This document shows, piece after piece, positions 7,148 to 51,269 of a stretch of DNA of 64,000 nt. The translations under genes and the position numbers were made by a program. Where the stretch lies: the NCBI RefSeq assembly GCF_056746865.1, contig NZ_CM163382.1, one strand, 5' to 3'. Below the pieces are notes generated by a model. It did not search any database. It was not told where the DNA came from and saw only the letters and a list, made by a program, of their open reading frames with translations. Every line of letters begins with the position of its first letter. The stretch's first letter is position 1.

Positions 7148-8503
7148 ATGTTGTCAAAATTTAAGCGTAATAAACATCAACAACACCTTGCCCAACTACC
7201 CAAGATTTCTCAATCAGTTGATGATGTCGATTTCTTTTACGCTCCCGCCGACTTCCGGGAGACGCTGCTGGAAAAAATAGCCAGCGCGAAGCAGCGCATT
7301 TGCATTGTCGCCCTGTATCTCGAACAGGATGACGGTGGCAAAGGCATTCTGAACGCGTTGTATGAGGCTAAAAGGCAGCGTCCGGAACTGGATGTGCGGG
7401 TGCTGGTCGACTGGCATCGTGCACAACGTGGACGCATTGGCGCTGCGGCATCTAACACTAACGCTGACTGGTACTGCCGCATGGCGCAGGAAAATCCGGG
7501 CGTAGATGTTCCGGTTTATGGCGTTCCAATCAATACCCGTGAAGCCCTTGGTGTTCTGCACTTTAAAGGCTTTATCATCGACGATAGCGTACTTTATAGC
7601 GGTGCCAGCCTGAACGATGTTTACCTGCATCAGCACGATAAATATCGCTACGACCGTTATCATCTTATCCGTAACCGTAAGATGTCAGACATTATGTTTG
7701 AATGGGTTACACAGAATATTATGAATGGCCGCGGCGTTAATCGTCTGGATGATGTTAATCGGCCAAAAAGCCCGGAAATCAAGAACGATATTCGTCTGTT
7801 CCGCCAGGAGCTGCGTGATGCCGCTTATCATTTCCAGGGCGATGCCGACAACGATCAGCTTTCCGTAACGCCGTTGGTAGGTCTGGGGAAATCGAGTCTG
7901 TTGAACAAGACCATTTTCCATCTTATGCCTTGTGCCGAGCAGAAACTAACCATCTGCACACCATACTTCAACCTGCCAGCAATCCTTGTGCGCAATATCA
8001 TCCAGTTACTGCGCGAAGGGAAAAAGGTCGAAATTATTGTTGGTGATAAAACCGCGAATGACTTCTACATTCCGGAAGATGAACCTTTCAAGATAATTGG
8101 CGCATTGCCTTATCTCTATGAGATCAATCTGCGTCGTTTCCTGAGCCGTTTGCAGTATTACGTCAATACTGACCAGTTAGTGGTTCGGTTATGGAAAGAT
8201 GACGACAACACCTATCACCTGAAAGGGATGTGGGTTGATGATAAGTGGATGTTGATCACCGGTAATAACCTGAACCCGCGCGCCTGGCGTCTGGATCTGG
8301 AAAACGCCATTTTGATCCACGATCCGCAACTGGAGCTTGCGCCACAGCGAGAGAAAGAACTGGAGCTGATCCGCGAGCATACCACCATCGTTAAGCACTA
8401 TCGCGATCTGCAAAGTATTGCCGATTATCCGGTGAAGGTTCGTAAACTCATCCGTCGTTTGCGCCGTATCCGCATCGACCGATTAATTAGCCGCATCCTG
8501 TAA
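7148..8503 (+). CDS. pssA: CDP-diacylglycerol-serine O-phosphatidyltransferase (phosphatidylserine synthase)
   Basis: ORF 7145..8503; two HxK-type PLD motifs (LHFKGFIID, YHLKGMWVDD). Confidence 0.93.
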   Translation: MLSKFKRNKHQQHLAQLPKISQSVDDVDFFYAPADFRETLLEKIASAKQRICIVALYLEQDDGGKGILNALYEAKRQRPELDVRVLVDWHRAQRGRIGAAASNTNADWYCRMAQENPGVDVPVYGVPINTREALGVLHFKGFIIDDSVLYSGASLNDVYLHQHDKYRYDRYHLIRNRKMSDIMFEWVTQNIMNGRGVNRLDDVNRPKSPEIKNDIRLFRQELRDAAYHFQGDADNDQLSVTPLVGLGKSSLLNKTIFHLMPCAEQKLTICTPYFNLPAILVRNIIQLLREGKKVEIIVGDKTANDFYIPEDEPFKIIGALPYLYEINLRRFLSRLQYYVNTDQLVVRLWKDDDNTYHLKGMWVDDKWMLITGNNLNPRAWRLDLENAILIHDPQLELAPQREKELELIREHTTIVKHYRDLQSIADYPVKVRKLIRRLRRIRIDRLISRIL

Positions 8504-8548
8504 TCACAACCCCGTCCTGTACGGGGTTTGTTTTTTGGAGGCCACGTT

Positions 8549-39960: not shown

Positions 39961-40323
39961 GGGGCTGATTCTGGATTCGACGGGATTTGCGAAACCCAAG
40001 GTGCATGCCGAGGGGCGGTTGGCCTCGTAAAAAGCCGCAAAAAATAGTCGCAAACGACGAAAACTACGCTTTAGCAGCTTAATAACCTGCTTAGAGCCCT
40101 CTCTCCCTAGCCTCCGCTCTTAGGACGGGGATCAAGAGAGGTCAAACCCAAAAGAGATCGCGTGGAAGCCCTGCCTGGGGTTGAAGCGTTAAAACTTAAT
40201 CAGGCTAGTTTGTTAGTGGCGTGTCCGTCCGCAGCTGGCAAGCGAATGTAAAGACTGACTAAGCATGTAGTACCGAGGACGTAGGAATTTCGGACGCGGG
40301 TTCAACTCCCGCCAGCTCCACCA
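39961..40323 (+). ncRNA. ssrA: tmRNA (transfer-messenger RNA, 10Sa RNA)
   Basis: Starts GGGGCTGATTCTGGATTCGACGGG, contains tag-coding GCAAACGACGAAAACTACGCTTTAGCAGCTTAA and ends GGTTCAACTCCCGCCAGCTCCACCA; 363 nt. Confidence 0.97.
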
Positions 40324-40354
40324 AACATTCATTCATGATGCATCATGAACCTTA

Positions 40355-40390
40355 AAAAAGCCTGTAACTTCAACGAGTTGCAGGCTTTTT
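40355..40390 (+). terminator. ssrA intrinsic terminator
   Basis: aaaaaagcctgtaacttcaacgagttgcaggctttttt hairpin plus T-run. Confidence 0.75.
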
Positions 40391-40489
40391 TGTTGCATGT
40401 GTGGTCATGATCTCTGTATGAATCTTGACCTTTTGGCACCATGTTTAGCACCACGGTATCGTGGGGCTAAAAAAGCGTGGTGCTAAAAC

Positions 40490-41737
40490 ATGCCTAAGCA
40501 ACTGAAACCCTTAACAAATGTGGAGATCGCTGGCGCGAAGCCCCGTAGCACGGATTATGAGCTACGGGACGGTGAAGGCCTGTACTTGCTGGTTAAGACT
40601 TCAGGGAGGAAGGCCTGGCATTTCGAGTATTATCATCCCGTCACCAAAAAGCGCACCAAAACCAGCCTTGGCCCTTACCCGGTCGTTACACTGGCCATGG
40701 CTCGCGAAACTCGCACGAAATACAGACGACTGCTCTGGCAGGGCATCGATCCCCGTCAACACTTAGCAGGAATAGCCGAAGAAAAACGCCTCCAGAATGA
40801 ATGCACGCTGGAAAAAGTTGCGGAACAGTGGCTCAAAGAGAAGAAACGGACCAGCGACCTTAGCGAAGATCACGCCAAAGATGTCTGGCGCTCGCTGGAG
40901 ATGCACGTCTTCCCTTCTCTGGGCAGTACGCCCGTCACCGAGATCCGCCCGAAGATGCTCAAGGAACACCTCACCCCGCTGGAAGAACAGGGCATCCTCG
41001 AAACGCTGCGCCGGGTTATCTCACGGCTCAATGAAATCTTCCGCTTCGCCATCTCCGAAGAGCTTATCGAGTTTAACCCAGCAGACAACCTGGTCGCCCG
41101 CTTCAAGAAACCGAAAAAGCAGAACATGCCCGCCCTTCCCCCCAGCGAACTGGGCAGACTAATGTTGGCACTACAAAACGCCTCTATCCGCAAGGAAACA
41201 CGCTGCCTTATCGAATGGGAGCTACTGACCTGGGTTCGCCCCGGCGAAGCCGTTAGCGCCCGCTGGTGCGACATCGATATGAAAAAAGCGGAATGGCGTA
41301 TCCCTGACACCTTTATGAAGATGAACCGTTCACACACGGTGCCGCTCAGCAAACAGGCGCTGCGTGTTCTTCAGATCATGGAGCCCGTCAGCCGCCATCG
41401 TCCGTGGGTCTTCCCCAGCATCCGCAAACCGCTGGAGCACATGCACCAGCAGACCGCGAACGCCGCGCTTATCCGCATGGGGTTCGGCGGTGAGCTGGTC
41501 GCCCACGGCATGCGCAGCATCGCCAGAACGGCGGGCGCAGGTCATTTTCCCCGTGAAGTTCTGGAATCTGCACTGGCACACCAGAAAGAAGACGAGATCG
41601 AAGCGGCCTACAATCGCAGCGACTATCTGGAACAAAGGCGACCGCTCATGCAGTGGTGGGGAAACTACGTTGATGCCGCCAGACGGCAGGCATTGCTCGG
41701 TGAAGAAGAACCGCTGCGGATCGTGGAAGGAGAATAA
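40490..41737 (+). CDS. P4-type tyrosine integrase
   Basis: 415-aa ORF; clear similarity to recalled CP4-57 IntA (MxxQxKPLTxxEIxxAKP...NRSDYLEQRRPMMQWW), with HGMRSIAR and YNRSDY catalytic-region motifs. Confidence 0.92.
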   Translation: MPKQLKPLTNVEIAGAKPRSTDYELRDGEGLYLLVKTSGRKAWHFEYYHPVTKKRTKTSLGPYPVVTLAMARETRTKYRRLLWQGIDPRQHLAGIAEEKRLQNECTLEKVAEQWLKEKKRTSDLSEDHAKDVWRSLEMHVFPSLGSTPVTEIRPKMLKEHLTPLEEQGILETLRRVISRLNEIFRFAISEELIEFNPADNLVARFKKPKKQNMPALPPSELGRLMLALQNASIRKETRCLIEWELLTWVRPGEAVSARWCDIDMKKAEWRIPDTFMKMNRSHTVPLSKQALRVLQIMEPVSRHRPWVFPSIRKPLEHMHQQTANAALIRMGFGGELVAHGMRSIARTAGAGHFPREVLESALAHQKEDEIEAAYNRSDYLEQRRPLMQWWGNYVDAARRQALLGEEEPLRIVEGE

Positions 41738-42732: not shown

Positions 42733-43905
42733 TTAGAGAACCTTAGACTGTTCTGGGAACCAGTTATTAATTATATGTCTTCGACAGACTTTAGATATTT
42801 CAAATACCTGTCGTGACACTAATGCACCATCAGGATGGCGCTGGTCAGGTATGTCATTTTCTATGTCATAAAAATTATGCGTTATTTCTGGGGGAAAGAA
42901 AACGTTTTTGTCTAAAGGCACGCTTGCATAGGGATTATAATACACATGCAAACCATCAAAATGAGTTTCCTTGTAGTCCCTTGTTCGGCACATTACAATA
43001 TCCGCGCCAACAACCTCATTGTTGTAGAATTGTCGCTTCGTAGTAACATAATGGTCAGGACCAAGTTTTCTCGTATGAGAACCTTCGTTCTTCATACCTT
43101 CATTGGCAATAAAAACATTCACATCAAGAGCTCGGAATCTCGTATATCGGACATATCGATCGACCCGACTCTGAACGATAGCCTTACCAAAAGTACCTGT
43201 CGTTGAAAACACGATAGCACTGATTTCTTTGTATGAGTCATTTGTAAAAATACCTAAAGGTATTTCAGTGTCTTCATTTTTTTTAATCGATAAAACCCTT
43301 CTTTGCCTACCATTTACTAAATCTCTCATCGTAGGTTCTTCAATGCCAAACAATACCCGGTTAATGATTGTATTATTCTGGGTTAAAGATAGATCTGAAT
43401 CAAATGGGGCCAATGCTAACACAAAAGGCTTACCGATTACATGTTCCATTGTTGAGTATGGGAACTTCTTACCATTAATTCCGGTAAAGAGATCGCGCTT
43501 ATCTTTAATTTTCCCAAGAAGTTTTAGCGTAGATTGATGCTTAAACTTAGCTTCACTGAAAATTTCACTGACTGGCGGTTTATGGGGCTTGTCAGAGACC
43601 ATAGCCTCTACGTTAAATTTATAACCTAATGGCGTGCTAACACAAAAATCAGGACTGTCTTTTGTATAGTCAACCGAATACCCCAAACGAATAAACATCT
43701 CATTTAGATATAATTCCCACATAGAAGAATTAAAGGTAGTCTGAAATTCGTTAATAAATTTAGTTTGTTCACCACTGCGTTCCAGTAATCCGCGTCCCCA
43801 TGATTGGATCACCGCCCTAACAGGAGCAAGTTTAGGATCTGTGTAGATTGTTTTAAAATTGTGATTTAGTTTATTTCTAGCTATTTTTGTTGAGAAGAGA
43901 TCCAT
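42733..43905 (-). CDS. hypothetical 390-aa protein, opposite strand, AT-rich
   Basis: Long uninterrupted ORF with good RBS (agaggtaaataATG); no family recognised. Confidence 0.7.
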   Translation of the reverse strand: MDLFSTKIARNKLNHNFKTIYTDPKLAPVRAVIQSWGRGLLERSGEQTKFINEFQTTFNSSMWELYLNEMFIRLGYSVDYTKDSPDFCVSTPLGYKFNVEAMVSDKPHKPPVSEIFSEAKFKHQSTLKLLGKIKDKRDLFTGINGKKFPYSTMEHVIGKPFVLALAPFDSDLSLTQNNTIINRVLFGIEEPTMRDLVNGRQRRVLSIKKNEDTEIPLGIFTNDSYKEISAIVFSTTGTFGKAIVQSRVDRYVRYTRFRALDVNVFIANEGMKNEGSHTRKLGPDHYVTTKRQFYNNEVVGADIVMCRTRDYKETHFDGLHVYYNPYASVPLDKNVFFPPEITHNFYDIENDIPDQRHPDGALVSRQVFEISKVCRRHIINNWFPEQSKVL

Positions 43906-44356
43906 TATTTACCTCTATAAACACTTTGTAAAACTAAACATGTGTATTTTACTGCGCTGATTGTCGAACATATGCTTCAAATTGTAATGCGGTATTCTAC
44001 ATCAGAAAAACCTCTTTTATATTTTCCTCATTAAATTTATTTACACCGAAAAATAGCCGCATGAATCATGTCTGAACAGATGAACTTCTCTAATATAGCC
44101 TAAATACCTACGACTGCGCTATAAAGAGGGAACCTCAAGCACTAATAGCACAAAGAAAATATGCGAACACAAATTTGACGCGAAACTATGACTTAGATAG
44201 GATGAATCTAGGTGGTGATGGTCACCTGGCGCCTGTCTCGCAAAGCAATAGCCCATCGTTCAGAAGTATACCAAATACTTGGCCGCCATCCATTATGACG
44301 CTGCCCGGTTAGCAGGCTATCGGTATCCAAAGCGTTACTTTATTGGAGGTACAGCC

Positions 44357-44896
44357 ATGTCTGACTATTCATACCTAAGCATTCTTAAAACGTGCGCTAA
44401 AAAGCTGGCTCGCATTCAGAAAATTAAGCTTTCCAAAGCACTCGAAATCGTTGCCCGTGACGCGAAATTCACCAGCTACCATGAGCTGTCCGAAGTCGCA
44501 AAACGTGCCCCGCTAGAACAACGGCTGGTTTTCGCTGCAATAGGCGAAGATACTCAAGAGGATGTGATTTATCGCGATGAGATTTTTTATGCCATAGACC
44601 GCGAGGTGGAAGATATGCTCTCCGGCGACATAGCGGAAACAAACGCCTATGGTTTTAGCATAGAGAATCTGGAGGCAACAAGCATAAATTACGACCCAAA
44701 GCGAGGCATTCTGGTCGTCCAAGTCATATTTGATTATCAGGGTGAACAAGATTCTGAACGCCCTTTCTCTGGTTCGTCCTTTGAAATTGTTGCGAAAATG
44801 GAGCTACTTCTTCGCGACAATGTATGGAGCCTCGTAGAAAATAGTCTGGAATTGACCTCTGTTAATTCAAATGTCGATAATGACTGGTACGATTAA
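44357..44896 (+). CDS. hypothetical acidic 179-aa protein
   Basis: ATG at 44357 preceded by GGAGG; ORF 44279..44896 trimmed. Confidence 0.6.
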   Translation: MSDYSYLSILKTCAKKLARIQKIKLSKALEIVARDAKFTSYHELSEVAKRAPLEQRLVFAAIGEDTQEDVIYRDEIFYAIDREVEDMLSGDIAETNAYGFSIENLEATSINYDPKRGILVVQVIFDYQGEQDSERPFSGSSFEIVAKMELLLRDNVWSLVENSLELTSVNSNVDNDWYD

Positions 44897-45497
44897 GACA
44901 TATAACAGTAGGAGGCATTCCAAATTTTTGGCGGAGTGCCTTTTTAGTAACTATATCCAGATGAAATCATCGAGTTATCACATGAGCATCCATCTTACGT
45001 GTACTCAAAACACTTATGGGCTTCTAAATTCAGGAAGTCCCTACTCCGCTTGCTGGCGCTTCTTTGAGCCTCGTGGCGTCCATATACACCAATTAGGCCA
45101 GACCATGCTCAAACAACTTGTCGAGAAATGCTATGTGCAAAAACCACTGGACATGTTCTCGATGACAGCAGGCAAACTAACTGGGCTTGATCAATCTGGG
45201 CCTAAACTGGCTTCCATCATATGCAGAGGGATAGAGCAGGCCAAAGATGTACAACTCGGAGAGTTACTTTTTGCCTGCGGTATCTATGGTGTGGAAGAAG
45301 AAGAAGCCTGGTTACTAGCTAAAAGATTCAGTAATCTTGAGGCCTTGTATGGTGCCAGCATAGATTCTCTGATGAGTTATAACCTTCTTAATGAGGCAGT
45401 AGCTGTCAATACGTATAACTTCTTCCGTCATCCGCTCAATGTGTCGGCTCTTAACGAGTTACAAACAGAAGGTGGATTGAAGGTGCGCCATGGATAG
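44871..45497 (+). CDS. protein with NAD-dependent DNA ligase-like C-terminal helix-hairpin-helix region (start uncertain; possible remnant)
   Basis: C-terminal ~100 aa (GPKLASIICRGIEQAKDVQLGELLFACGIYGV...LEALYGASIDSLMSYNLLNEAVAVNTYNFFRHPLNVSALNELQTEGGLKV) aligns by eye to the LigA HhH region; alternative starts TTG 44928 (AGGAGG upstream) or ATG 44961. Confidence 0.5.
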   Translation: MSIMTGTIKTYNSRRHSKFLAECLFSNYIQMKSSSYHMSIHLTCTQNTYGLLNSGSPYSACWRFFEPRGVHIHQLGQTMLKQLVEKCYVQKPLDMFSMTAGKLTGLDQSGPKLASIICRGIEQAKDVQLGELLFACGIYGVEEEEAWLLAKRFSNLEALYGASIDSLMSYNLLNEAVAVNTYNFFRHPLNVSALNELQTEGGLKVRHG

Positions 45498-45682
45498 AAT
45501 TAACACCAAGGCTGTGCCCGGCCTTTTATCTATGCAACGTAGCCGATGACAGTTAACGGTGAGACAGCAACACCTGTTGTAACATGTTTGTACTCGTGCA
45601 TTGCCATCCGTAGGCCTAAACATATCTGACTCCCACAGGATGGGGATAAAATACAACATTTGCATTTTCAATTTGTTATCGA

Positions 45683-45732
45683 AAAATCATTAGTCCTGAT
45701 GGGAAATAATATCTTCCCGGACTAATGATTTT
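45683..45732. promoter_or_regulatory. 50-bp region with perfect 14-bp inverted repeat upstream of alpA (operator or terminator)
   Basis: aaaatcattagtcc (45683-45696) and ggactaatgatttt (45719-45732) are exact reverse complements; followed by repeated tatccgg motifs. Confidence 0.45.
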
Positions 45733-45831
45733 CTATCCGGACTCCACTTTTTTATCCGGGCCTATACCTCCCCTCATCGTTCCGCGCTATAACCGCTCCG
45801 ACACTCTGTTCCCGTCCCGTGAGGTGCAATC

Positions 45832-46047
45832 ATGAAAACCAGTGCAGACAGTAACGATGCTTTTCCCGAAAGCGGCAACGTGCGTATGCGGCAGGTAGTC
45901 CAGTTTCTGGCGATGAGTGAATCGTCGGTTTACCGCCTGATTAAAAACACCGACTTTCCCCGCCCCGTCCACCTCTCTTCCCGACTGGTGGTCTTCGATG
46001 CTGCTGAAATCCGTCAGTGGCAACAGCGCCGCGCCGCCATCCGTTAA
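45832..46047 (+). CDS. alpA: AlpA-family phage transcriptional regulator (HTH)
   Basis: 71-aa ORF with RMRQVVQFLAMSESSVYRLIKNTDFPRPV helix-turn-helix typical of AlpA. Confidence 0.85.
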   Translation: MKTSADSNDAFPESGNVRMRQVVQFLAMSESSVYRLIKNTDFPRPVHLSSRLVVFDAAEIRQWQQRRAAIR

Positions 46048-46082
46048 TCCACGCTCAGGGATGAGCCGACTGATACCCCGTC

Positions 46083-48152
46083 ATGAAACGCGCCCCTTTT
46101 CTCTGTAAGCAGTCTCCGGACCGCACGCTCGAAGTGGTGATCCTTGCCGGAAGCCTGGCATGGGAGACCTCACACGTGTGGCGAAAAGATCCCGACCGGG
46201 AAGATGATGTTCCCCCGATGGTACTCGGCCCGGATGAACTGGCCGATCTGAGCAATCTGACCATTATCAGGCCCGACACGCTCTACGTCCGGGTACTTCG
46301 CACCGGCGATATCAGTGAAGAAGAGCTGCTGAAAATTGCCGTAAAACTGGCGCACGCGGGCGTGCAGATGGCCCGGCTGATGACCCCTGACGGTGAGTTA
46401 CTGGAGAACTGGACCGGACAGCTTGAACGCCTGCGACAGGAAAGACCTTCTGACATCCTGCCGGATCACTTCCGCCTCGATGAAGAAGCACTGTGGTTTG
46501 ATAAGCTCACCGAACGGCGCGACGGTGAAAGCGATGTCCAGCCCCAGCGCATCTGTTCCCCTCTGCGCGTCACTGCCATCACCTGCGACAGCCATGACGG
46601 CAGCTATGGCCGCCTGCTGGAATGGCACACCACCACCGGGCAATTGCGGCGCTGGGCCATGCCGATGGCGATGCTCAGCGGCAACGGCGAGGAGCTGAGG
46701 CGCATTCTGCTGGAGAACGGCCTGACCTATATCTCCACCCGCCCTGCCCTGCGCAGTCTGCTGTGCGAATATATCTCGCGGTCACTCCCCGGACGCCGGG
46801 TCACCTGCGCGGAGAAAACCGGCTGGCACAACGGCGTGTACGTGCTGCCGGATGAGGTTATCGGTCCCGATGGCGACAACGTCATTCTCCAGGGCAGCCA
46901 CTACCTGACTGGCGGCTTTGCACAATCCGGTACGCTGGCAGAGTGGCAGGAGCAGGTCGCCGCGCTCTGTGCAGGCAATTCACGGCTGGTCTTTGCCGTC
47001 TGCTGTGCGCTGGCCGCCCCGCTGCTGCGCCTGACAGGAACGGGCGGCGGAGGCTTTCATCTGCGCGGTGAGTCCACTGACGGTAAGACCACGGTGATGA
47101 AAGTGGCCGCTTCCGTCTGTGGCGGGACGGATTACTGGCACTCCTGGCGGGCCACCGGGAATGCGCTGGAAGGAATTGCCAGCCGCCACAACGATGCCCT
47201 GCTGCCACTTGATGAACTGCGCGAAGTGGACCCGCGTGAGGCCGGGATGATTGCCTATATGCTGGCGAACGGACAGGGCAAGGGGCGCGCCCGCACCGAT
47301 GGCGAAGTGCGTAACCGCAGGCACTGGACGCTGCTGCTGTTCTCCACCGGGGAGCTGTCGCTGGCGGAACACACCGAATGCGCCGGGGAGCGCCTCTACG
47401 CCGGGATGGACGTGCGCATGGTACAAATCCCCAGCGACACCGGGCAGCATGGTTCGTTTGAGCAGTTGCACGGGTTTGCCAGCGGCCAGCAGTTCGCCGA
47501 TACTCTCTGCGACCGGGTGGCCCGCTTCCACGGCACCGCCTTTCGTGCCTGGCTGGCCTTCCTCACCAGCGACCTGGACGCCAGCACCACGCTGGCGAGA
47601 GAGTTACTTCGCCGCTACCAGACCGCCCTGATGCCGGACAACGCCGGAAACCAGGTGCAGCGCATCGTGGCCCGTTTTGCCCTGCTGGCGGTGGCCGGGG
47701 AGATAGCGACACTGAACGGTATCACGGGCTGGCAGGAAGGCTCGGCGTATGGGGCGGTGCAGATCTGCCTTCACGCCTGGCTGAACGAGCGCGGCCATAT
47801 TGCCAACCAGGAAGATGAAGGCGTGCTGGCGCAGATCAAGCGGTTCATTACCGCGCACCAGTACAGCCGCTTTGCCTCGTGGGATGGCCCGGACCGCCCG
47901 CTGAATATGGCAGGCTTTCGCCGGGTGGAAAAAGATCCGCTGACGGGCGAGGAACACACGCTGTTCTTCATCCTGCCTGAGGGCTGGCGGGAAATATGCC
48001 GGGGATTCAGTCCTGCCAGAGCGGCCAGATTATGCCAGGAAGCGGAATGCCTGCTGCCCGGCAGCGACGGGAAATACCAGTCGCAGGTTCGCCTGCCGGA
48101 GATCGGCAAAGCCAGAGTCTACCGCCTCACCTCCCGCATCCTCAGTATCTGA
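46083..48152 (+). CDS. P4 alpha-like primase/helicase-type replication protein (P-loop NTPase C-terminal half)
   Basis: 689-aa ORF, Walker A GESTDGKTTV, position after alpA as in P4-like and PICI elements; GC-rich unlike the cargo. Confidence 0.75.
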   Translation: MKRAPFLCKQSPDRTLEVVILAGSLAWETSHVWRKDPDREDDVPPMVLGPDELADLSNLTIIRPDTLYVRVLRTGDISEEELLKIAVKLAHAGVQMARLMTPDGELLENWTGQLERLRQERPSDILPDHFRLDEEALWFDKLTERRDGESDVQPQRICSPLRVTAITCDSHDGSYGRLLEWHTTTGQLRRWAMPMAMLSGNGEELRRILLENGLTYISTRPALRSLLCEYISRSLPGRRVTCAEKTGWHNGVYVLPDEVIGPDGDNVILQGSHYLTGGFAQSGTLAEWQEQVAALCAGNSRLVFAVCCALAAPLLRLTGTGGGGFHLRGESTDGKTTVMKVAASVCGGTDYWHSWRATGNALEGIASRHNDALLPLDELREVDPREAGMIAYMLANGQGKGRARTDGEVRNRRHWTLLLFSTGELSLAEHTECAGERLYAGMDVRMVQIPSDTGQHGSFEQLHGFASGQQFADTLCDRVARFHGTAFRAWLAFLTSDLDASTTLARELLRRYQTALMPDNAGNQVQRIVARFALLAVAGEIATLNGITGWQEGSAYGAVQICLHAWLNERGHIANQEDEGVLAQIKRFITAHQYSRFASWDGPDRPLNMAGFRRVEKDPLTGEEHTLFFILPEGWREICRGFSPARAARLCQEAECLLPGSDGKYQSQVRLPEIGKARVYRLTSRILSI

Positions 48153-48824: not shown

Positions 48825-49811
48825 ATGGTTAAAATTCACATTTTAGATGCCGGACATGGTGATTGCTTGTTAGTAGACTGCGATGGTGTCAAATTGTTAA
48901 TTGACGCTGGCCCAAGTACATTTAGGTATAGAAAAAAAATTTCAGCCAAGTTAGCTGAACTTCTGAATGGCGAGTCTGTTGATATCGCTTTTGTAACTCA
49001 CAATGATGATGACCATATCGGTGGTTTCAAATACCTAATTGAAAATAAAATAAACATCAAGAGATTTGTATTCAATAGTTTATCTAACATTAAACATGTA
49101 ATAAAGAATTCAAGCAATAAAATATCGACCAAACAAGATATAAATCTTGATAGAATAGTGAAAGATGGAAGTTTTGTCTTTTCGACACTAACTTCAGATG
49201 ACTCTCCTATTTTAATCAGAAATATAAAAATAACACCTATTACTCCTTCAAAAAATATCCTTTTAAAATATTTAGAACAACAAGAGCGTAAAAACACAGA
49301 AATTAAAATATCATCTTCATCTGAAAAATATAGTATTAAAGAAGCACTGCAGTTGCTAAGCAATGGAAATGATATGTTTGTAAAGGATCCATCGGCAACT
49401 AATAAAACCAGTTTATCATTTATGATTGAGTATGGGAATTTTTGTGGATTATTCCTTGGTGATGCACACGAAGAAGACATCTACTCATATATGGCTAATC
49501 ATTGTGCCAATAGAAAAATATCATTTAACGTTGTTAAGTTAGCACATCATGGTAGTGAAAAAAACACGAGTTCACGGTTATTGAAGTTAATTGGTACAAC
49601 AGAATATATCATATGTGCGAATAAAACCAAGCATAATCATCCAAATAATTTAACTCTTGCAAGAATTTTAATACATGAACAAGAACCTAAAATTCATATG
49701 AGTAGCAGCAATCAGGAGATAATAAATTTACTCAATCAAATAAATTTATTAGGCTTCGGCATTACTGCAACCCATTCTGAAAATGGAGTTAATACTTTAA
49801 TCTATGAGTAG
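48825..49811 (+). CDS. metallo-beta-lactamase-fold protein, ComEC-like (putative nuclease/hydrolase)
   Basis: 328-aa ORF: ILDAGHGDCLLVDCDGVKLLIDAG start, THNDDDHIGG metal-binding-like motif, AHHGSEKNTS motif; very AT-rich. Confidence 0.7.
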   Translation: MVKIHILDAGHGDCLLVDCDGVKLLIDAGPSTFRYRKKISAKLAELLNGESVDIAFVTHNDDDHIGGFKYLIENKINIKRFVFNSLSNIKHVIKNSSNKISTKQDINLDRIVKDGSFVFSTLTSDDSPILIRNIKITPITPSKNILLKYLEQQERKNTEIKISSSSEKYSIKEALQLLSNGNDMFVKDPSATNKTSLSFMIEYGNFCGLFLGDAHEEDIYSYMANHCANRKISFNVVKLAHHGSEKNTSSRLLKLIGTTEYIICANKTKHNHPNNLTLARILIHEQEPKIHMSSSNQEIINLLNQINLLGFGITATHSENGVNTLIYE

Positions 49812-51269
49812 AAAAAATGCTGTAAAAATAAAAGTCAATGATTCGGAATCAAGTGGCTATTTTTTCAAAGCAAGCTCCAAGGATGATTCTTTTGTAATTT
49901 CATCCAAGCACGGCCTTTGTTCTAGACAGTCAGATTGTGAAGAATTTCTTGATAATGTTCAGAATTGTTGCCGTTTATGCACTCAAGATTTAAATATTGA
50001 CAATATATCTTTTGAAATTGAAGGAAATAAGAAGCTAAAGCCAATAAGTTATTTCAGTCTTGAAAACAAAGATATTGTCATCACCAAAGTGGATGGGGTA
50101 TCTAATTATCCTTTAAGGATAGGAAAGATAGAAAAAGAAAAGTATTATACTTATGGTTACAAGAGTAAATGTGATAAGCCTGGCAGAATTTTATTAAATG
50201 AGCCAGATTTATTAGATGGGATTTGTTATTTCAATATATGTTCCGATGCAACACCTGAGTTGATTGAGAAAAGTGAAGAATATTATGGAATTTCAGGTTC
50301 ATTAGTTTTTGATTCTCCAGAAAAAGATGTTTTAACCGCACATGCAGTAATAACAACTAATGAAACCAATAATGACTTAGGTTCAGAAATATTACATGAT
50401 ATTGATTTCAAAGAAATTAATAACTTTTTCGGCTGTGAAGTATTCTTGGGTAAAAAACTCCAATTTCAACTAGATGATACTTTTAGTAAAAATTTTTCAA
50501 AGATTGGAGAAGTGCTTGTTAGCGACAAACTCCAAATTGAAATATTTATTTCATCTTATAAAGGTATACCATATTTTAATTTGACACCAATTGCTGATGC
50601 ATTAATTCAAAGTAAGTTTTATTATGTTTTTGGAAATGTTAGTAGAAGTGATCATATAAATATAATCGCTGCATCAAACATTATACTCAACAAATCTCAT
50701 TTAGAACCAGCTAATAAATTATTAACTAGCAAATTAACTGAATCGATATTATCAGCACCTCATATTTATTCCACTAGCATTGATGATAATAATTATCATC
50801 ATATTCATTTTAAACAAATGACTTCTGGTGATATTGAGCTCATAATATCATGTTATGGTGGAGGAGATGATCTTCCTAAAGATATAAATGGCACTTTAAC
50901 TGAGTTGTTACACAATATAAATACTTATAACTTAAATAAAAATTCAATAATTGAGAGGTCTTTTCTTAATCAAAAATTTACAGATGCACAATGCGAAATT
51001 TTATATGAGATTTTTTTGAGCGATTAACTGATTCAATCGACAGAATTTCATTATTGCATGTAATTCCTTTGGACCATTATTTAATAAAAGATAAATCAGA
51101 AATTAAAAATGAAATTATTACCATTGTTGAGAAAGCGTGTCAAGAATTAGACAGCAACATTTTAGATTATCTTGAGCATGGAATATCTATAAATCTATTA
51201 ATATTTCCAACTAATAATAAAGATGAATTATCAGGGTTAATGCAAAGGTTGATAAATAATTATGAATGA
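49804..51269 (+). CDS. protein with trypsin-like serine protease-type motifs; reading frame interrupted at a T7 run (ORFs 49804..51027 and 51054..51269 probably one gene)
   Basis: Start overlaps the MBL gene stop by 8 nt (ATGAGTAG); motifs SSKHGLC, NKDIVITKV, GISGSLVF; frame 1 stops at 51027 while frame 0 stays open from the T7 run (51011-51017) to 51269 and has no ATG or RBS of its own. Confidence 0.6.

What the first reader, a model, noticed from the sequence alone, without database searches (positions are those of the whole stretch)
44871..45497. Stand-alone DNA-ligase-like helix-hairpin-helix module in the island
The C-terminal ~100 residues align by eye to the HhH region at the C-terminus of NAD-dependent DNA ligase LigA, with the same order of motifs (GxKxAxxI, LxxLxxAS[IE]xxL, NFF, then an acidic LxxxG end). 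No adenylation or OB domain is present and the N-terminus is unrelated, with ambiguous start codons. It could be a remnant of a captured ligase gene or a DNA-binding decoy or adaptor.
Basis: partly seen in the sequence, partly recalled or inferred. Interest (0 to 1): 0.5.

Follow-up and report, generated by a model that had tools for sequence, protein, structure and literature searches.

The report
Stand-alone ligase DNA-binding domain gene
A small, well-conserved gene carried by temperate phages, phage-plasmids and this E. coli island encodes only the DNA-gripping (helix-hairpin-helix) domain of the bacterial DNA ligase LigA, with half of its DNA contacts rewritten; it is a working gene of unknown role, probably used in phage-versus-phage conflict.

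Summary
The ORF at 44871-45497 aligns without gaps to E. coli LigA residues 427-580 (38% identity, E about 1e-24 to 1e-30). An AlphaFold model superposes on the LigA HhH domain (TM 0.83-0.86). No adenylation, OB or BRCT remnant exists in any frame.

It is not a decaying relic. The conserved protein starts at M38 (44982; 171 aa). Homologues of 168-173 aa occur in many Klebsiella SSU5-like phage-plasmids, lambdoid prophages and other islands. Synonymous sites are saturated while dN/dS is 0.09-0.27.

Only 2 of the 6 LigA HhH residues reported as essential survive. Hairpins 3 and 4 are replaced by motifs fixed across the close (69-81% identical) homologues; GIYGVEEEEAW, once GIYGVEEDEAW, replaces hairpin 3.

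The gene always sits as a lone accessory gene in variable slots next to lysis, partition or defence genes. Here it lies in an ssrA island between PD-T7-5 and alpA, on a block derived from a phage-plasmid.

Function is untested. My best guess is a non-catalytic DNA- or ligase-interface competitor or adaptor, expressed in lysogeny for conflict between mobile elements. The family is uncharacterised: PGAP gives a generic name and PHROG 22334 has unknown function. Interest is moderate.

The parts
44982..45497 (+). geneB: the real coding sequence of the stand-alone LigA-type HhH protein (171 aa plus stop).
   Evidence: Its start is shared by all homologues. Purifying selection covers codons 1-36 as well (pN/pS 0.1-0.27). 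The AF2 model has pLDDT 89.7.
44871..44981 (+). It is not conserved and is probably untranslated.
   Evidence: Other loci have in-frame stops 3-19 codons upstream of the shared ATG. Indels shift the frame in this stretch.
45012..45473 (+). Segment homologous to E. coli LigA residues 427-580 (end of the Zn-finger region plus the four-HhH domain).
   Evidence: Foldseek gives TM 0.83-0.86 and rmsd 1.5-1.8 A to 5TT5/2OWO/4GLX.
45039..45242 (+). HhH motifs 1 and 2 (aa 20-48 and 63-87). The hairpin glycines are kept (G39 = LigA G455, G73 = G489). This is also the mosaic, most variable segment among Klebsiella alleles.
   Evidence: Essential residues are taken from PMC8123306.
45255..45428 (+). HhH motifs 3 and 4 (aa 92-116 and 127-149), remodelled. 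LigA G521 is E105 inside GIYGVEEEEAW (45279-45311). LigA G553 is N137 within LLNE.
   Evidence: The GIYGVEE.EAW and N137 columns are fixed in the close (69-81% identical) homologues; one of them has GIYGVEEDEAW. GIYGIEE is also seen in the 57%-identical P0029.
45508..45525 (+). Terminator-like hairpin just after the geneB stop codon.
   Evidence: Consensus scan only.
44910..44945 (+). Hairpin followed by a U-run between geneA and geneB (core stem GGCAUUCC/GGAGUGCC). It looks like an intrinsic terminator.
   Evidence: Fold. The hairpin is conserved, with base changes that keep pairing, in the three loci where geneA precedes geneB. Function not tested.
44357..44896 (+). geneA: an acidic 179-aa protein of unknown function (PHROG 28020). 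It is a frequent neighbour of geneB and an alternative occupant of the same phage-plasmid slot.
   Evidence: dN/dS is 0.09-0.13. The AF2 model (pLDDT 87) has no significant PDB match.
44175..44356 (+). Promoter-like site (TTGACG-17-TAGGAT) followed by a ~130-nt, almost invariant non-coding leader of geneA.
   Evidence: No Rfam match.
44092..44136 (+). Relic of the parA-proximal intergenic DNA of SSU5-type phage-plasmids. It marks the origin of the geneA-geneB block.
42733..43905 (-). PD-T7-5 anti-phage defence gene, the neighbouring cargo gene.
   Evidence: PADLOC E=2.4e-137. The same gene sits in the adjacent variable slot of Citrobacter and E. coli phage-plasmids.
45832..48152 (+). alpA (45832-46047) and a DUF927 primase/helicase gene (46083-48152). 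These are core genes of the island, downstream of geneB.
39961..41737 (+). ssrA (tmRNA, 39961-40323) and the island integrase (40490-41737). This is the island's attachment end.

Best explanation
Shown: geneB (44982-45497) is a functional, non-catalytic protein. It descends from the C-terminal tail of the Zn-finger plus the four-HhH domain of an enterobacterial LigA. It was cut out close to the domain boundaries and then diverged to 38% identity without a single indel. It travels as a self-contained accessory ('moron') gene of temperate mobile elements. These are SSU5-like phage-plasmids, lambdoid prophages and integrative islands such as this ssrA island.

Inferred mechanism (about 40% for the class, less for any detail):
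- The protein is made in the lysogenic or carrier state.
- It still grips duplex DNA through its first (HhH)2 pair, where the hairpin glycines are kept.
- Its second (HhH)2 pair no longer contacts DNA. It has become a fixed, acidic protein-binding surface.
- The protein cannot close a ligase clamp itself.
- It could instead occupy DNA or ligase-partner sites, acting as a competitor or adaptor. That would interfere with a ligase-dependent or DNA-end step of an incoming phage or rival element (superinfection exclusion or defence).
For: Identity and fold:
- Searches give the sequence match.
- The AF2 model has pLDDT 89.7.
- Foldseek gives TM 0.83-0.86 to E. coli LigA structures.

No catalytic remnants.

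Functional gene:
- Homologues are 168-173 aa with a shared start.
- dN/dS is 0.09-0.27 with saturated synonymous sites.
- One allele (P0005) is listed in 2338 index blocks of the assembly collection, mostly on 50-200 kb contigs.
- About 100 Klebsiella plasmids of ~110 kb carry it, as do 144 of 5426 complete E. coli genomes.

Moron-like placement:
- It is a lone gene on the strand opposite its neighbours, between parA and the Rz1/endolysin/holin cassette, in phage-plasmids.
- In lambdoid prophages it lies with hicAB between the DUF968 gene block and the holin/lysozyme genes.
- In the window it lies between PD-T7-5 and alpA.
- The adjacent phage-plasmid slot holds PD-T7-5, KAP NTPase or DUF2971 genes.
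- The island also carries Hachiman-like and PD-T4-1 genes.

Residue logic:
- The LigA residues reported essential are R446, G455, R487, G489, G521 and G553 (PMC8123306).
- In geneB they map to P30, G39, Q71, G73, E105 and N137.
- The replaced hairpin 3 lies in the most conserved block of the close homologues, LLFACGIYGVEE.EAWLLA.
Against: - No experiment, complex prediction or electrostatic calculation was possible, so DNA binding by HhH1-2 is only inferred.
- The HhH1-2 segment is the most variable part among Klebsiella alleles. The commonest allele has GLK instead of GPK in hairpin 2. That argues against strict conservation of DNA contacts.
- Net charge is only about -2, so the protein is not a DNA mimic.
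- It matches no PADLOC defence model.
- No promoter of its own was convincingly identified in the window. A terminator-like hairpin lies just upstream.
- Placement in variable slots is compatible with anti-defence or with functions unrelated to conflict.
Confidence: 0.4

Rival explanations
1. Protein-directed ligase mimic. The protein imitates the HhH domain of an NAD+-dependent ligase and binds a protein, not DNA. Candidates are the catalytic part of host LigA, subunit A of the split NAD+ ligases of T5-like phages, or a phage factor that targets LigA. It would act as a dominant-negative inhibitor or as a decoy.
For: - The whole LigA HhH fold is kept although 4 of 6 essential residues are changed.
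- It has a fixed new acidic surface.
- Stand-alone HhH polypeptides that work in trans exist in phages, as 'NAD-dependent DNA [ligase] subunit B'.
- The phage-plasmid hosts of geneB carry their own ATP-dependent ligase, so they could tolerate interference with NAD+ ligases.
- The mosaic, variable HhH1-2 segment could be a conflict interface.
Against: - LigA R446, the residue reported to contact the NTase domain, is a fixed proline in the family.
- Constitutive inhibition of the essential host LigA would be toxic in lysogens.
- The E. coli island and the lambdoid prophages showed no ligase gene in the regions examined.
- There is no detectable similarity to T5-type subunit B at the sequence level.
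- pN/pS in the variable segment is 0.4, not above 1.
Confidence: 0.2
2. Helper subunit. The protein is a trans-acting DNA-binding subunit that assists a ligase or another DNA enzyme of the mobile element. The model is subunit B of split phage ligases. It could also be an accessory to the phage-plasmid ATP-dependent ligase.
For: - Split ligase subunit B proteins are the only other stand-alone relatives seen among viral structures.
- Phage-plasmids with geneB encode a 439-aa ATP-dependent ligase about 9 kb away.
Against: - No ligase catalytic gene is adjacent in any context.
- No ligase gene was seen in the examined parts of the E. coli island or the lambdoid prophages.
- Two of the four DNA-binding hairpin glycines, plus R487, are lost.
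- Related phage-plasmids carry geneA or unrelated genes in the same slot, so geneB is dispensable for the element.
Confidence: 0.1
3. Component of a two-gene system with the upstream geneA (or, in lambdoid prophages, a third component of hicAB). One example would be a toxin-antitoxin-like or sensor-effector pair.
For: - geneA directly precedes geneB in three unrelated contexts, with 77-80% identity and a conserved intergenic hairpin.
- geneB follows hicAB by 72 nt in four prophage loci.
Against: - Each gene occurs alone many times.
- geneB is alone in Klebsiella phage-plasmids, and geneA is alone in pHCM2, pJN2-26, Citrobacter, Dickeya, Enterobacter and Rahnella.
- A terminator-like hairpin separates them.
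Confidence: 0.1
4. Non-functional remnant of a captured ligase gene, kept only by hitch-hiking.
For: - It has no catalytic domains.
- PGAP calls only a 120-aa fragment.
- Essential LigA residues are lost.
Against: - dN/dS is 0.09-0.27 with saturated synonymous sites.
- There are no indels or stops across lineages that are 57-81% identical.
- Start and length are conserved.
- The model is confidently folded.
- The gene persists independently in at least four element types.
Confidence: 0.03

Closest known systems
[quoted passage not shown]
   Same: - It has the same four-HhH fold (TM 0.83-0.86, rmsd 1.5-1.8 A).
- The alignment is gapless at 38% identity.
- Hairpin glycines 1 and 2, and the GPK of hairpin 2, are kept.
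   Different: - It is a separate 171-aa polypeptide.
- It has no Ia, NTase, OB or BRCT domains.
- Zn ligands are lost: C408 and C411 are absent and C432 is N.
- R446 is P, R487 is Q, G521 is E and G553 is N.
- It has a fixed acidic GIYGVEEEEAW motif.
- It is encoded on mobile elements.
Subunit B of split NAD+-dependent DNA ligases of T5-like phages (e.g. Vibrio phage vB_VpS_PG07, 207 aa)
   Same: It is a stand-alone, phage-encoded polypeptide built from the ligase HhH region.
   Different: - Structural similarity is weak (TMq 0.51, E=0.08) and no sequence hit is seen.
- Subunit B genes would be expected to lie beside a catalytic subunit A gene (from background knowledge, not checked here). geneB has no such neighbour.
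- Whether subunit B keeps the DNA-binding hairpins was not examined.
Degenerate (HhH)2 modules used for protein-protein binding (XPF-ERCC1, FANCM-FAAP24)
   Same: Foldseek gave local ~50-residue matches to these modules, with E above 1. From general knowledge, not tested here, HhH motifs that have lost the hairpin glycine can serve as protein-interaction surfaces.
   Different: - There is no detectable sequence relationship.
- Those modules are eukaryotic or archaeal nuclease subunits.
- The analogy is a lead, not a test.
Other stand-alone bacterial HhH DNA binders (ComEA C-terminal domain, DisA C-terminal domain, RuvA domain II)
   Same: They are small non-catalytic HhH DNA-binding units. Source names for one homologue cluster (P0005) include 'DisA/LigA helix-hairpin-helix motif'.
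   Different: - They are only distantly related. DisA matches cover about 70 residues at E~0.7-1.
- geneB is specifically LigA-derived and has four motifs, not two.

Membership tests
NAD+-dependent DNA ligase LigA (TIGR00575 / NF005932) | Adenylation (NTase) domain with the KxDG lysine, plus the Ia and OB domains. | tested here: not met
   tblastn of full LigA finds only residues 401-580, and nothing in other frames or flanks. The NCBIfam score is 75 bits against a cut-off of 444.
NAD+-dependent DNA ligase LigA (TIGR00575 / NF005932) | Four-cysteine Zn finger (C408, C411, C426, C432). | tested here: not met
   The protein starts after C411. C426 and C432 align to N10 and N16.
NAD+-dependent DNA ligase LigA (TIGR00575 / NF005932) | Four-HhH domain fold. 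| tested here: met
NAD+-dependent DNA ligase LigA (TIGR00575 / NF005932) | Essential HhH residues R446, G455, R487, G489, G521 and G553 (PMC8123306, citing Wang, Nair and Shuman 2008). | tested here: not met
   Only G455 and G489 are kept. The others are P30, Q71, E105 and N137.
NAD+-dependent DNA ligase LigA (TIGR00575 / NF005932) | C-terminal BRCT domain. | tested here: not met
   The protein ends about 7 residues after LigA G580. No BRCT match is found downstream.
Pfam HHH_2 (PF12826) | Score above the gathering threshold. | tested here: met
   31.3 bits against 27, at residues 132-190 of the 208-aa ORF.
PHROG 22334 (phage protein family, unknown function) | Significant full-length profile match. 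| tested here: met
   E=7.5e-45, profile positions 1-111 of 116.
Split phage NAD+ ligase, subunit B | Adjacent gene for the catalytic subunit A (criterion taken from background knowledge, not checked in those phages). | tested here: not met
   No NTase-encoding gene lies next to geneB in the window or in any of the homologue loci.
Known anti-phage defence systems (PADLOC-DB v2) | Match to a defence-system protein model. | tested here: not met
   No PADLOC hit for geneB at E<=0.1. geneA has only a weak HamA-like hit at E=0.004.
Prophage moron / lysogeny-expressed accessory gene | Self-contained gene in a variable slot, often on the strand opposite the flanking phage operons, and absent from related elements. 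| tested here: met
Prophage moron / lysogeny-expressed accessory gene | Own promoter and terminator, with expression in the lysogen. | not testable with these tools
   Only consensus scans are available. A terminator-like hairpin lies downstream and no convincing conserved promoter was found.

The most novel reading that the evidence does not exclude
Temperate phages, phage-plasmids and islands of Enterobacterales carry a domesticated copy of the DNA-binding domain of the host's essential ligase. Half of its DNA contacts are rewritten. It would act as a dominant-negative or decoy against NAD+-ligase-dependent steps. Examples are sealing of cohesive ends, or poisoning the split NAD+ ligase of T5-like phages. 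Alternatively it would bait a phage factor aimed at LigA. Either way it would be a defence or exclusion principle based on mimicry of a host enzyme domain.
Probability: 0.15. Interest if true: 0.75.

Novelty: new variant of a known kind. Interest (0 to 1): 0.45.

Why it matters
- The family would be a clean example of a mobile element excising one domain of an essential host enzyme and keeping it under selection for a new, non-catalytic job.
- It is common in clinically important Klebsiella phage-plasmids, yet it has no assigned function.
- It sits in the variable slots where defence genes such as PD-T7-5 are found, so it is a cheap and well-defined candidate for a phage-challenge screen.
- If it acts on ligase-dependent steps, it would add ligase mimicry to the known ways of excluding phages.
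- If it proves to be only a generic DNA binder, the finding is ordinary.
- The work also corrects the gene model: the start is at 44982, not the 120-aa PGAP call or the 208-aa ORF.

Tried and rejected
- LigB origin: no significant match.
- Remnants of other LigA domains in other frames or flanks, or DNA-level similarity to ligA: none.
- Longer N-terminus (208 aa) and the PGAP 120-aa model: both rejected from homologue starts, upstream stops and selection on codons 1-36.
- DNA-mimic idea: net charge is only -2.1 and pI 6.2.
- Local positive selection in the variable HhH1-2 segment: pN/pS is 0.39-0.45 and synonymous divergence is also high there. This looks like recombinational mosaicism, not dN/dS above 1.
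- My early note that LigA R446 is conserved was wrong. Exact indexing shows R446 is P30, and it is R447 that is kept.
- geneA fold search: no PDB match below E=1e-3, only vague NTF2/cystatin-like sheets. Pfam and NCBIfam gave nothing significant.
- Rfam scan of 43900-45800: no hit.
- Promoter-like site at 44852-44881: its -10 box is not conserved in the other geneA-geneB loci, so it is probably chance.
- Literature searches on LigA-domain decoys, phage inhibitors of LigA, HHH_2 in phages and PD-T7-5 neighbours found nothing on this family.
- The representative-library search (1.84 billion proteins) found only the family itself, one 57%-identical subfamily, and full-length, fragmentary or chimeric LigA sequences.
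Full report
**1. What is at the coordinates**

The 208-aa ORF at 44871..45497 (+) is present.
- Its residues 48-201 match E. coli LigA residues 427-580 with E=2.5e-24 against all PDB chain sequences. Thermus and Deinococcus LigA come next.
- Pairwise BLASTP against MG1655 LigA gives 59/154 identities (38%), no gaps, E=3e-30. LigB gives nothing.
- Pfam HHH_2 passes its gathering score.
- The NCBIfam LigA equivalog models match only their HhH portion, at 75 bits against a cut-off of 444.
- tblastn of the whole LigA against the window finds only LigA 401-580 at 44934-45473. No trace of the Ia, NTase, OB or BRCT domains appears in any frame, and there is no DNA-level similarity to ligA.

**2. The gene model**

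Eight homologues begin with MSI[EHYRF]L at the codon equivalent to M38 of the ORF (window 44982). They are 168-173 aa long.
- In the other loci an in-frame stop lies 3-19 codons upstream of this ATG. The upstream DNA carries frame-shifting indels.
- Codons 1-36 of the 171-aa version are under purifying selection (pN/pS 0.1-0.27).
- The protein is therefore 171 aa (44982-45497). It is neither the 208-aa ORF nor the 120-aa PGAP model that starts at a GTG at 45135.

**3. A working gene, not a relic**

- Between the E. coli copy and the Klebsiella or other copies, synonymous sites are saturated (pS 0.68-0.83) while pN is 0.15-0.19.
- Where dS can be estimated, dN/dS is 0.09-0.27.
- There are no indels against LigA, and no stops in lineages 57-81% identical.
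- The AlphaFold2 model is confident (mean pLDDT 89.7, pTM 0.86).
- It superposes on the HhH domain of E. coli LigA structures with TM 0.83-0.86 and rmsd 1.5-1.8 A over 152-161 residues.

**4. What has changed relative to LigA**

A paper on LigA inhibitors summarises the essential residues of the HhH domain (PMC8123306). R446 contacts the NTase domain. G455, R487, G489, G521 and G553 bind DNA.
- Exact indexing maps these residues to P30, G39, Q71, G73, E105 and N137.
- Only the hairpin glycines of motifs 1 and 2 survive.
- Hairpin 3 lies inside LLFACGIYGVEE.EAWLLA. This is the longest fixed block among the close (69-81% identical) homologues, of which one has D for the third E. It is still recognisable as GIYGIEE in the 57%-identical subfamily.
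- Hairpin 4 carries a fixed Asn.
- The Zn site is gone.
- Net charge is about -2, so this is not a DNA mimic.
- Among close Klebsiella alleles the HhH1-2 segment (aa 37-86) is a mosaic. It has high synonymous and non-synonymous divergence (pN/pS about 0.4), while the flanks are nearly identical. That points to allele exchange in this segment, not simple positive selection.

**5. Where the family lives**

In a library of 1.84 billion representative proteins, the specific family consists of the E. coli/Klebsiella cluster and one 57%-identical subfamily. Everything else is full-length, fragmentary or chimeric LigA. The family matches PHROG 22334, of unknown function. Four contexts were seen.
- **Klebsiella pneumoniae SSU5-like phage-plasmids of ~110 kb.** The gene is a lone + strand gene between the parA operon and the Rz1/endolysin/holin cassette. 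One allele (P0005) is listed in 2338 index blocks of the assembly collection.
- **Lambdoid prophages.** The 57% subfamily sits with hicAB, on the opposite strand, between the DUF968 gene block and the holin/lysozyme genes.
- **Two other islands or prophages** (L014, L018), where it follows geneA.
- **This window.** It is an E. coli island integrated at ssrA (tmRNA 39961-40323, integrase 40490-41737), present in 144 of 5426 complete genomes.

**6. The neighbourhood**

- Upstream on the minus strand is PD-T7-5 (42733-43905; PADLOC E=2.4e-137).
- Directly upstream on the plus strand is geneA (44357-44896). It encodes an acidic 179-aa protein, PHROG 28020, with dN/dS 0.09-0.13.
- geneA occupies exactly the same parA|lysis slot in Salmonella Typhi pHCM2, Klebsiella phage pJN2-26 and Citrobacter pCAV1741-110.
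- geneA also occurs alone next to BREX-like, Gabija-like and deaminase genes in Dickeya, Enterobacter and Rahnella.
- geneA and geneB are therefore independent cargo genes that sometimes travel together.
- A hairpin plus U-run (44910-44945) separates them.
- The window keeps about 45 nt of the parA-proximal intergenic DNA of SSU5-type elements at 44092-44136.
- In Citrobacter and E. coli phage-plasmids PD-T7-5 sits in the adjacent variable slot. The PD-T7-5/geneA/geneB block of the island therefore came from such an element.
- The rest of the island carries Hachiman-like and PD-T4-1 genes.

**7. How it most likely works**

Shown:
- It derives from LigA.
- The full fold is kept, while catalysis and 4 of 6 essential HhH residues are lost.
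- It is under purifying selection.
- It is placed like a moron in variable, defence-rich slots of temperate elements.

Inferred:
- The protein is made in the carrier state.
- It can still touch duplex DNA with HhH1-2.
- It uses the rewritten, fixed acidic HhH3-4 face for a protein contact.
- It thereby acts as a competitor or adaptor at DNA or ligase-partner sites, to the detriment of incoming elements.

I put about 40% on this class of explanation. Rivals:
- A protein-directed ligase mimic or decoy (20%). It is weakened because R446 is a proline and because inhibiting host LigA would be toxic.
- A helper subunit for a ligase, by analogy with the split ligase subunit B seen in the viral structure library, or with the phage-plasmids' own ATP-dependent ligase (10%). 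It is weakened by the lack of a partner gene in the island and prophages, and by dispensability of the slot.
- A two-gene system with geneA or hicAB (10%). It is weakened because each gene occurs alone.
- A dead remnant (3%). It is contradicted by selection.

The remainder is 'something else'.

**8. Comparison with what is known**

- The closest relative by every measure is the HhH domain of enterobacterial LigA. The protein nevertheless fails every catalytic and most functional criteria of LigA membership.
- It is a member of Pfam HHH_2 and of PHROG 22334.
- It matches no PADLOC defence model.
- I found no paper that describes it.
- Databases call it 'helix-hairpin-helix domain-containing protein' or, wrongly, 'DNA ligase'.

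**9. Verdict**

This is a real, conserved, uncharacterised family: a stand-alone, remodelled LigA HhH domain carried by temperate mobile elements. It is a new variant of a known kind (host-derived HhH domain protein, phage accessory gene). Its mechanism is untested but easy to test. Interest is moderate at 0.45. It would rise substantially if ligase mimicry in phage exclusion were demonstrated.

Noticed in passing
window 44175-44356: A promoter-like site is followed by a ~130-nt non-coding leader of geneA. The leader is almost invariant in 8 loci from six genera, although geneA coding DNA is saturated at synonymous sites. Block 1 is AGGTGGTGATGGTCACCTGGCGCCTGTCTCGCAAAGCAATAGCCCATC (about 44210-44257). 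Block 2 ends in GGTTAGCAGGCTATCGGTA. There is no Rfam match. In E. coli genomes it matched in about the same number of genomes as the geneA-geneB region and is unannotated there. It is a candidate structured 5' UTR or small RNA.
   Followed up: partly
window 42733-43905 (-): A PD-T7-5 anti-phage defence gene (PADLOC E=2.4e-137). The same gene sits in a variable slot of Citrobacter and E. coli SSU5-like phage-plasmids.
   Followed up: partly
window 44092-44136; L019, L021, L002, L013: About 45 nt of the parA-proximal intergenic DNA of SSU5-type phage-plasmids is retained upstream of geneA in the chromosomal island. The PD-T7-5/geneA/geneB block was therefore transferred from a phage-plasmid, minus its par genes.
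   Followed up: yes
L019 6001-6552, L021 4001-4558, L033 7293-7844 versus L002-L011 8001-8522; L032 10114-11291: The slot between parA and the lysis cassette of SSU5-like phage-plasmids holds geneA, or geneB, or unrelated genes, depending on the element. It is a previously undescribed variable cargo slot.
   Followed up: partly
window 48825-53786: A metallo-beta-lactamase-fold gene (LmuA/RTasMBL-like) and a 407-aa unknown gene are followed by a Hachiman HamB helicase. HamB is split into two ORFs (51262-52464 and 52503-53786) that match the N- and C-halves of one 845-aa model. It is probably a disrupted or unusual Hachiman-type system.
   Followed up: no
window 57917-59170 (+): A PD-T4-1 defence gene (DUF3883; PADLOC E=1e-204) lies further along the island, beyond sorbitol PTS genes.
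   Followed up: no
geneB codons 37-86 (window 45090-45239) in L002, L008, L015: Klebsiella alleles that are nearly identical elsewhere differ sharply, at both synonymous and non-synonymous sites, in the HhH1-2 segment. This is a recombinational mosaic confined to the part that still resembles LigA's DNA-binding hairpins.
   Followed up: partly
L028-L031, genes at 7291-8507: In lambdoid prophages a 57%-identical geneB homologue lies 72 nt downstream of a hicA-hicB toxin-antitoxin pair. All three genes are on the strand opposite the flanking late genes.
   Followed up: no
protein P0028 (metagenomic, 933 aa): This protein is made of six tandem LigA-type HhH domains followed by a BRCT domain, with no recognisable ligase catalytic domain in the available sequence. 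It may be a partial gene.
   Followed up: no
L001 21136-21498 = window 45135-45497: The RefSeq/PGAP model of geneB is truncated to 120 aa from a GTG start. Some database entries for homologues are named 'DNA ligase', which is misleading.
   Followed up: yes
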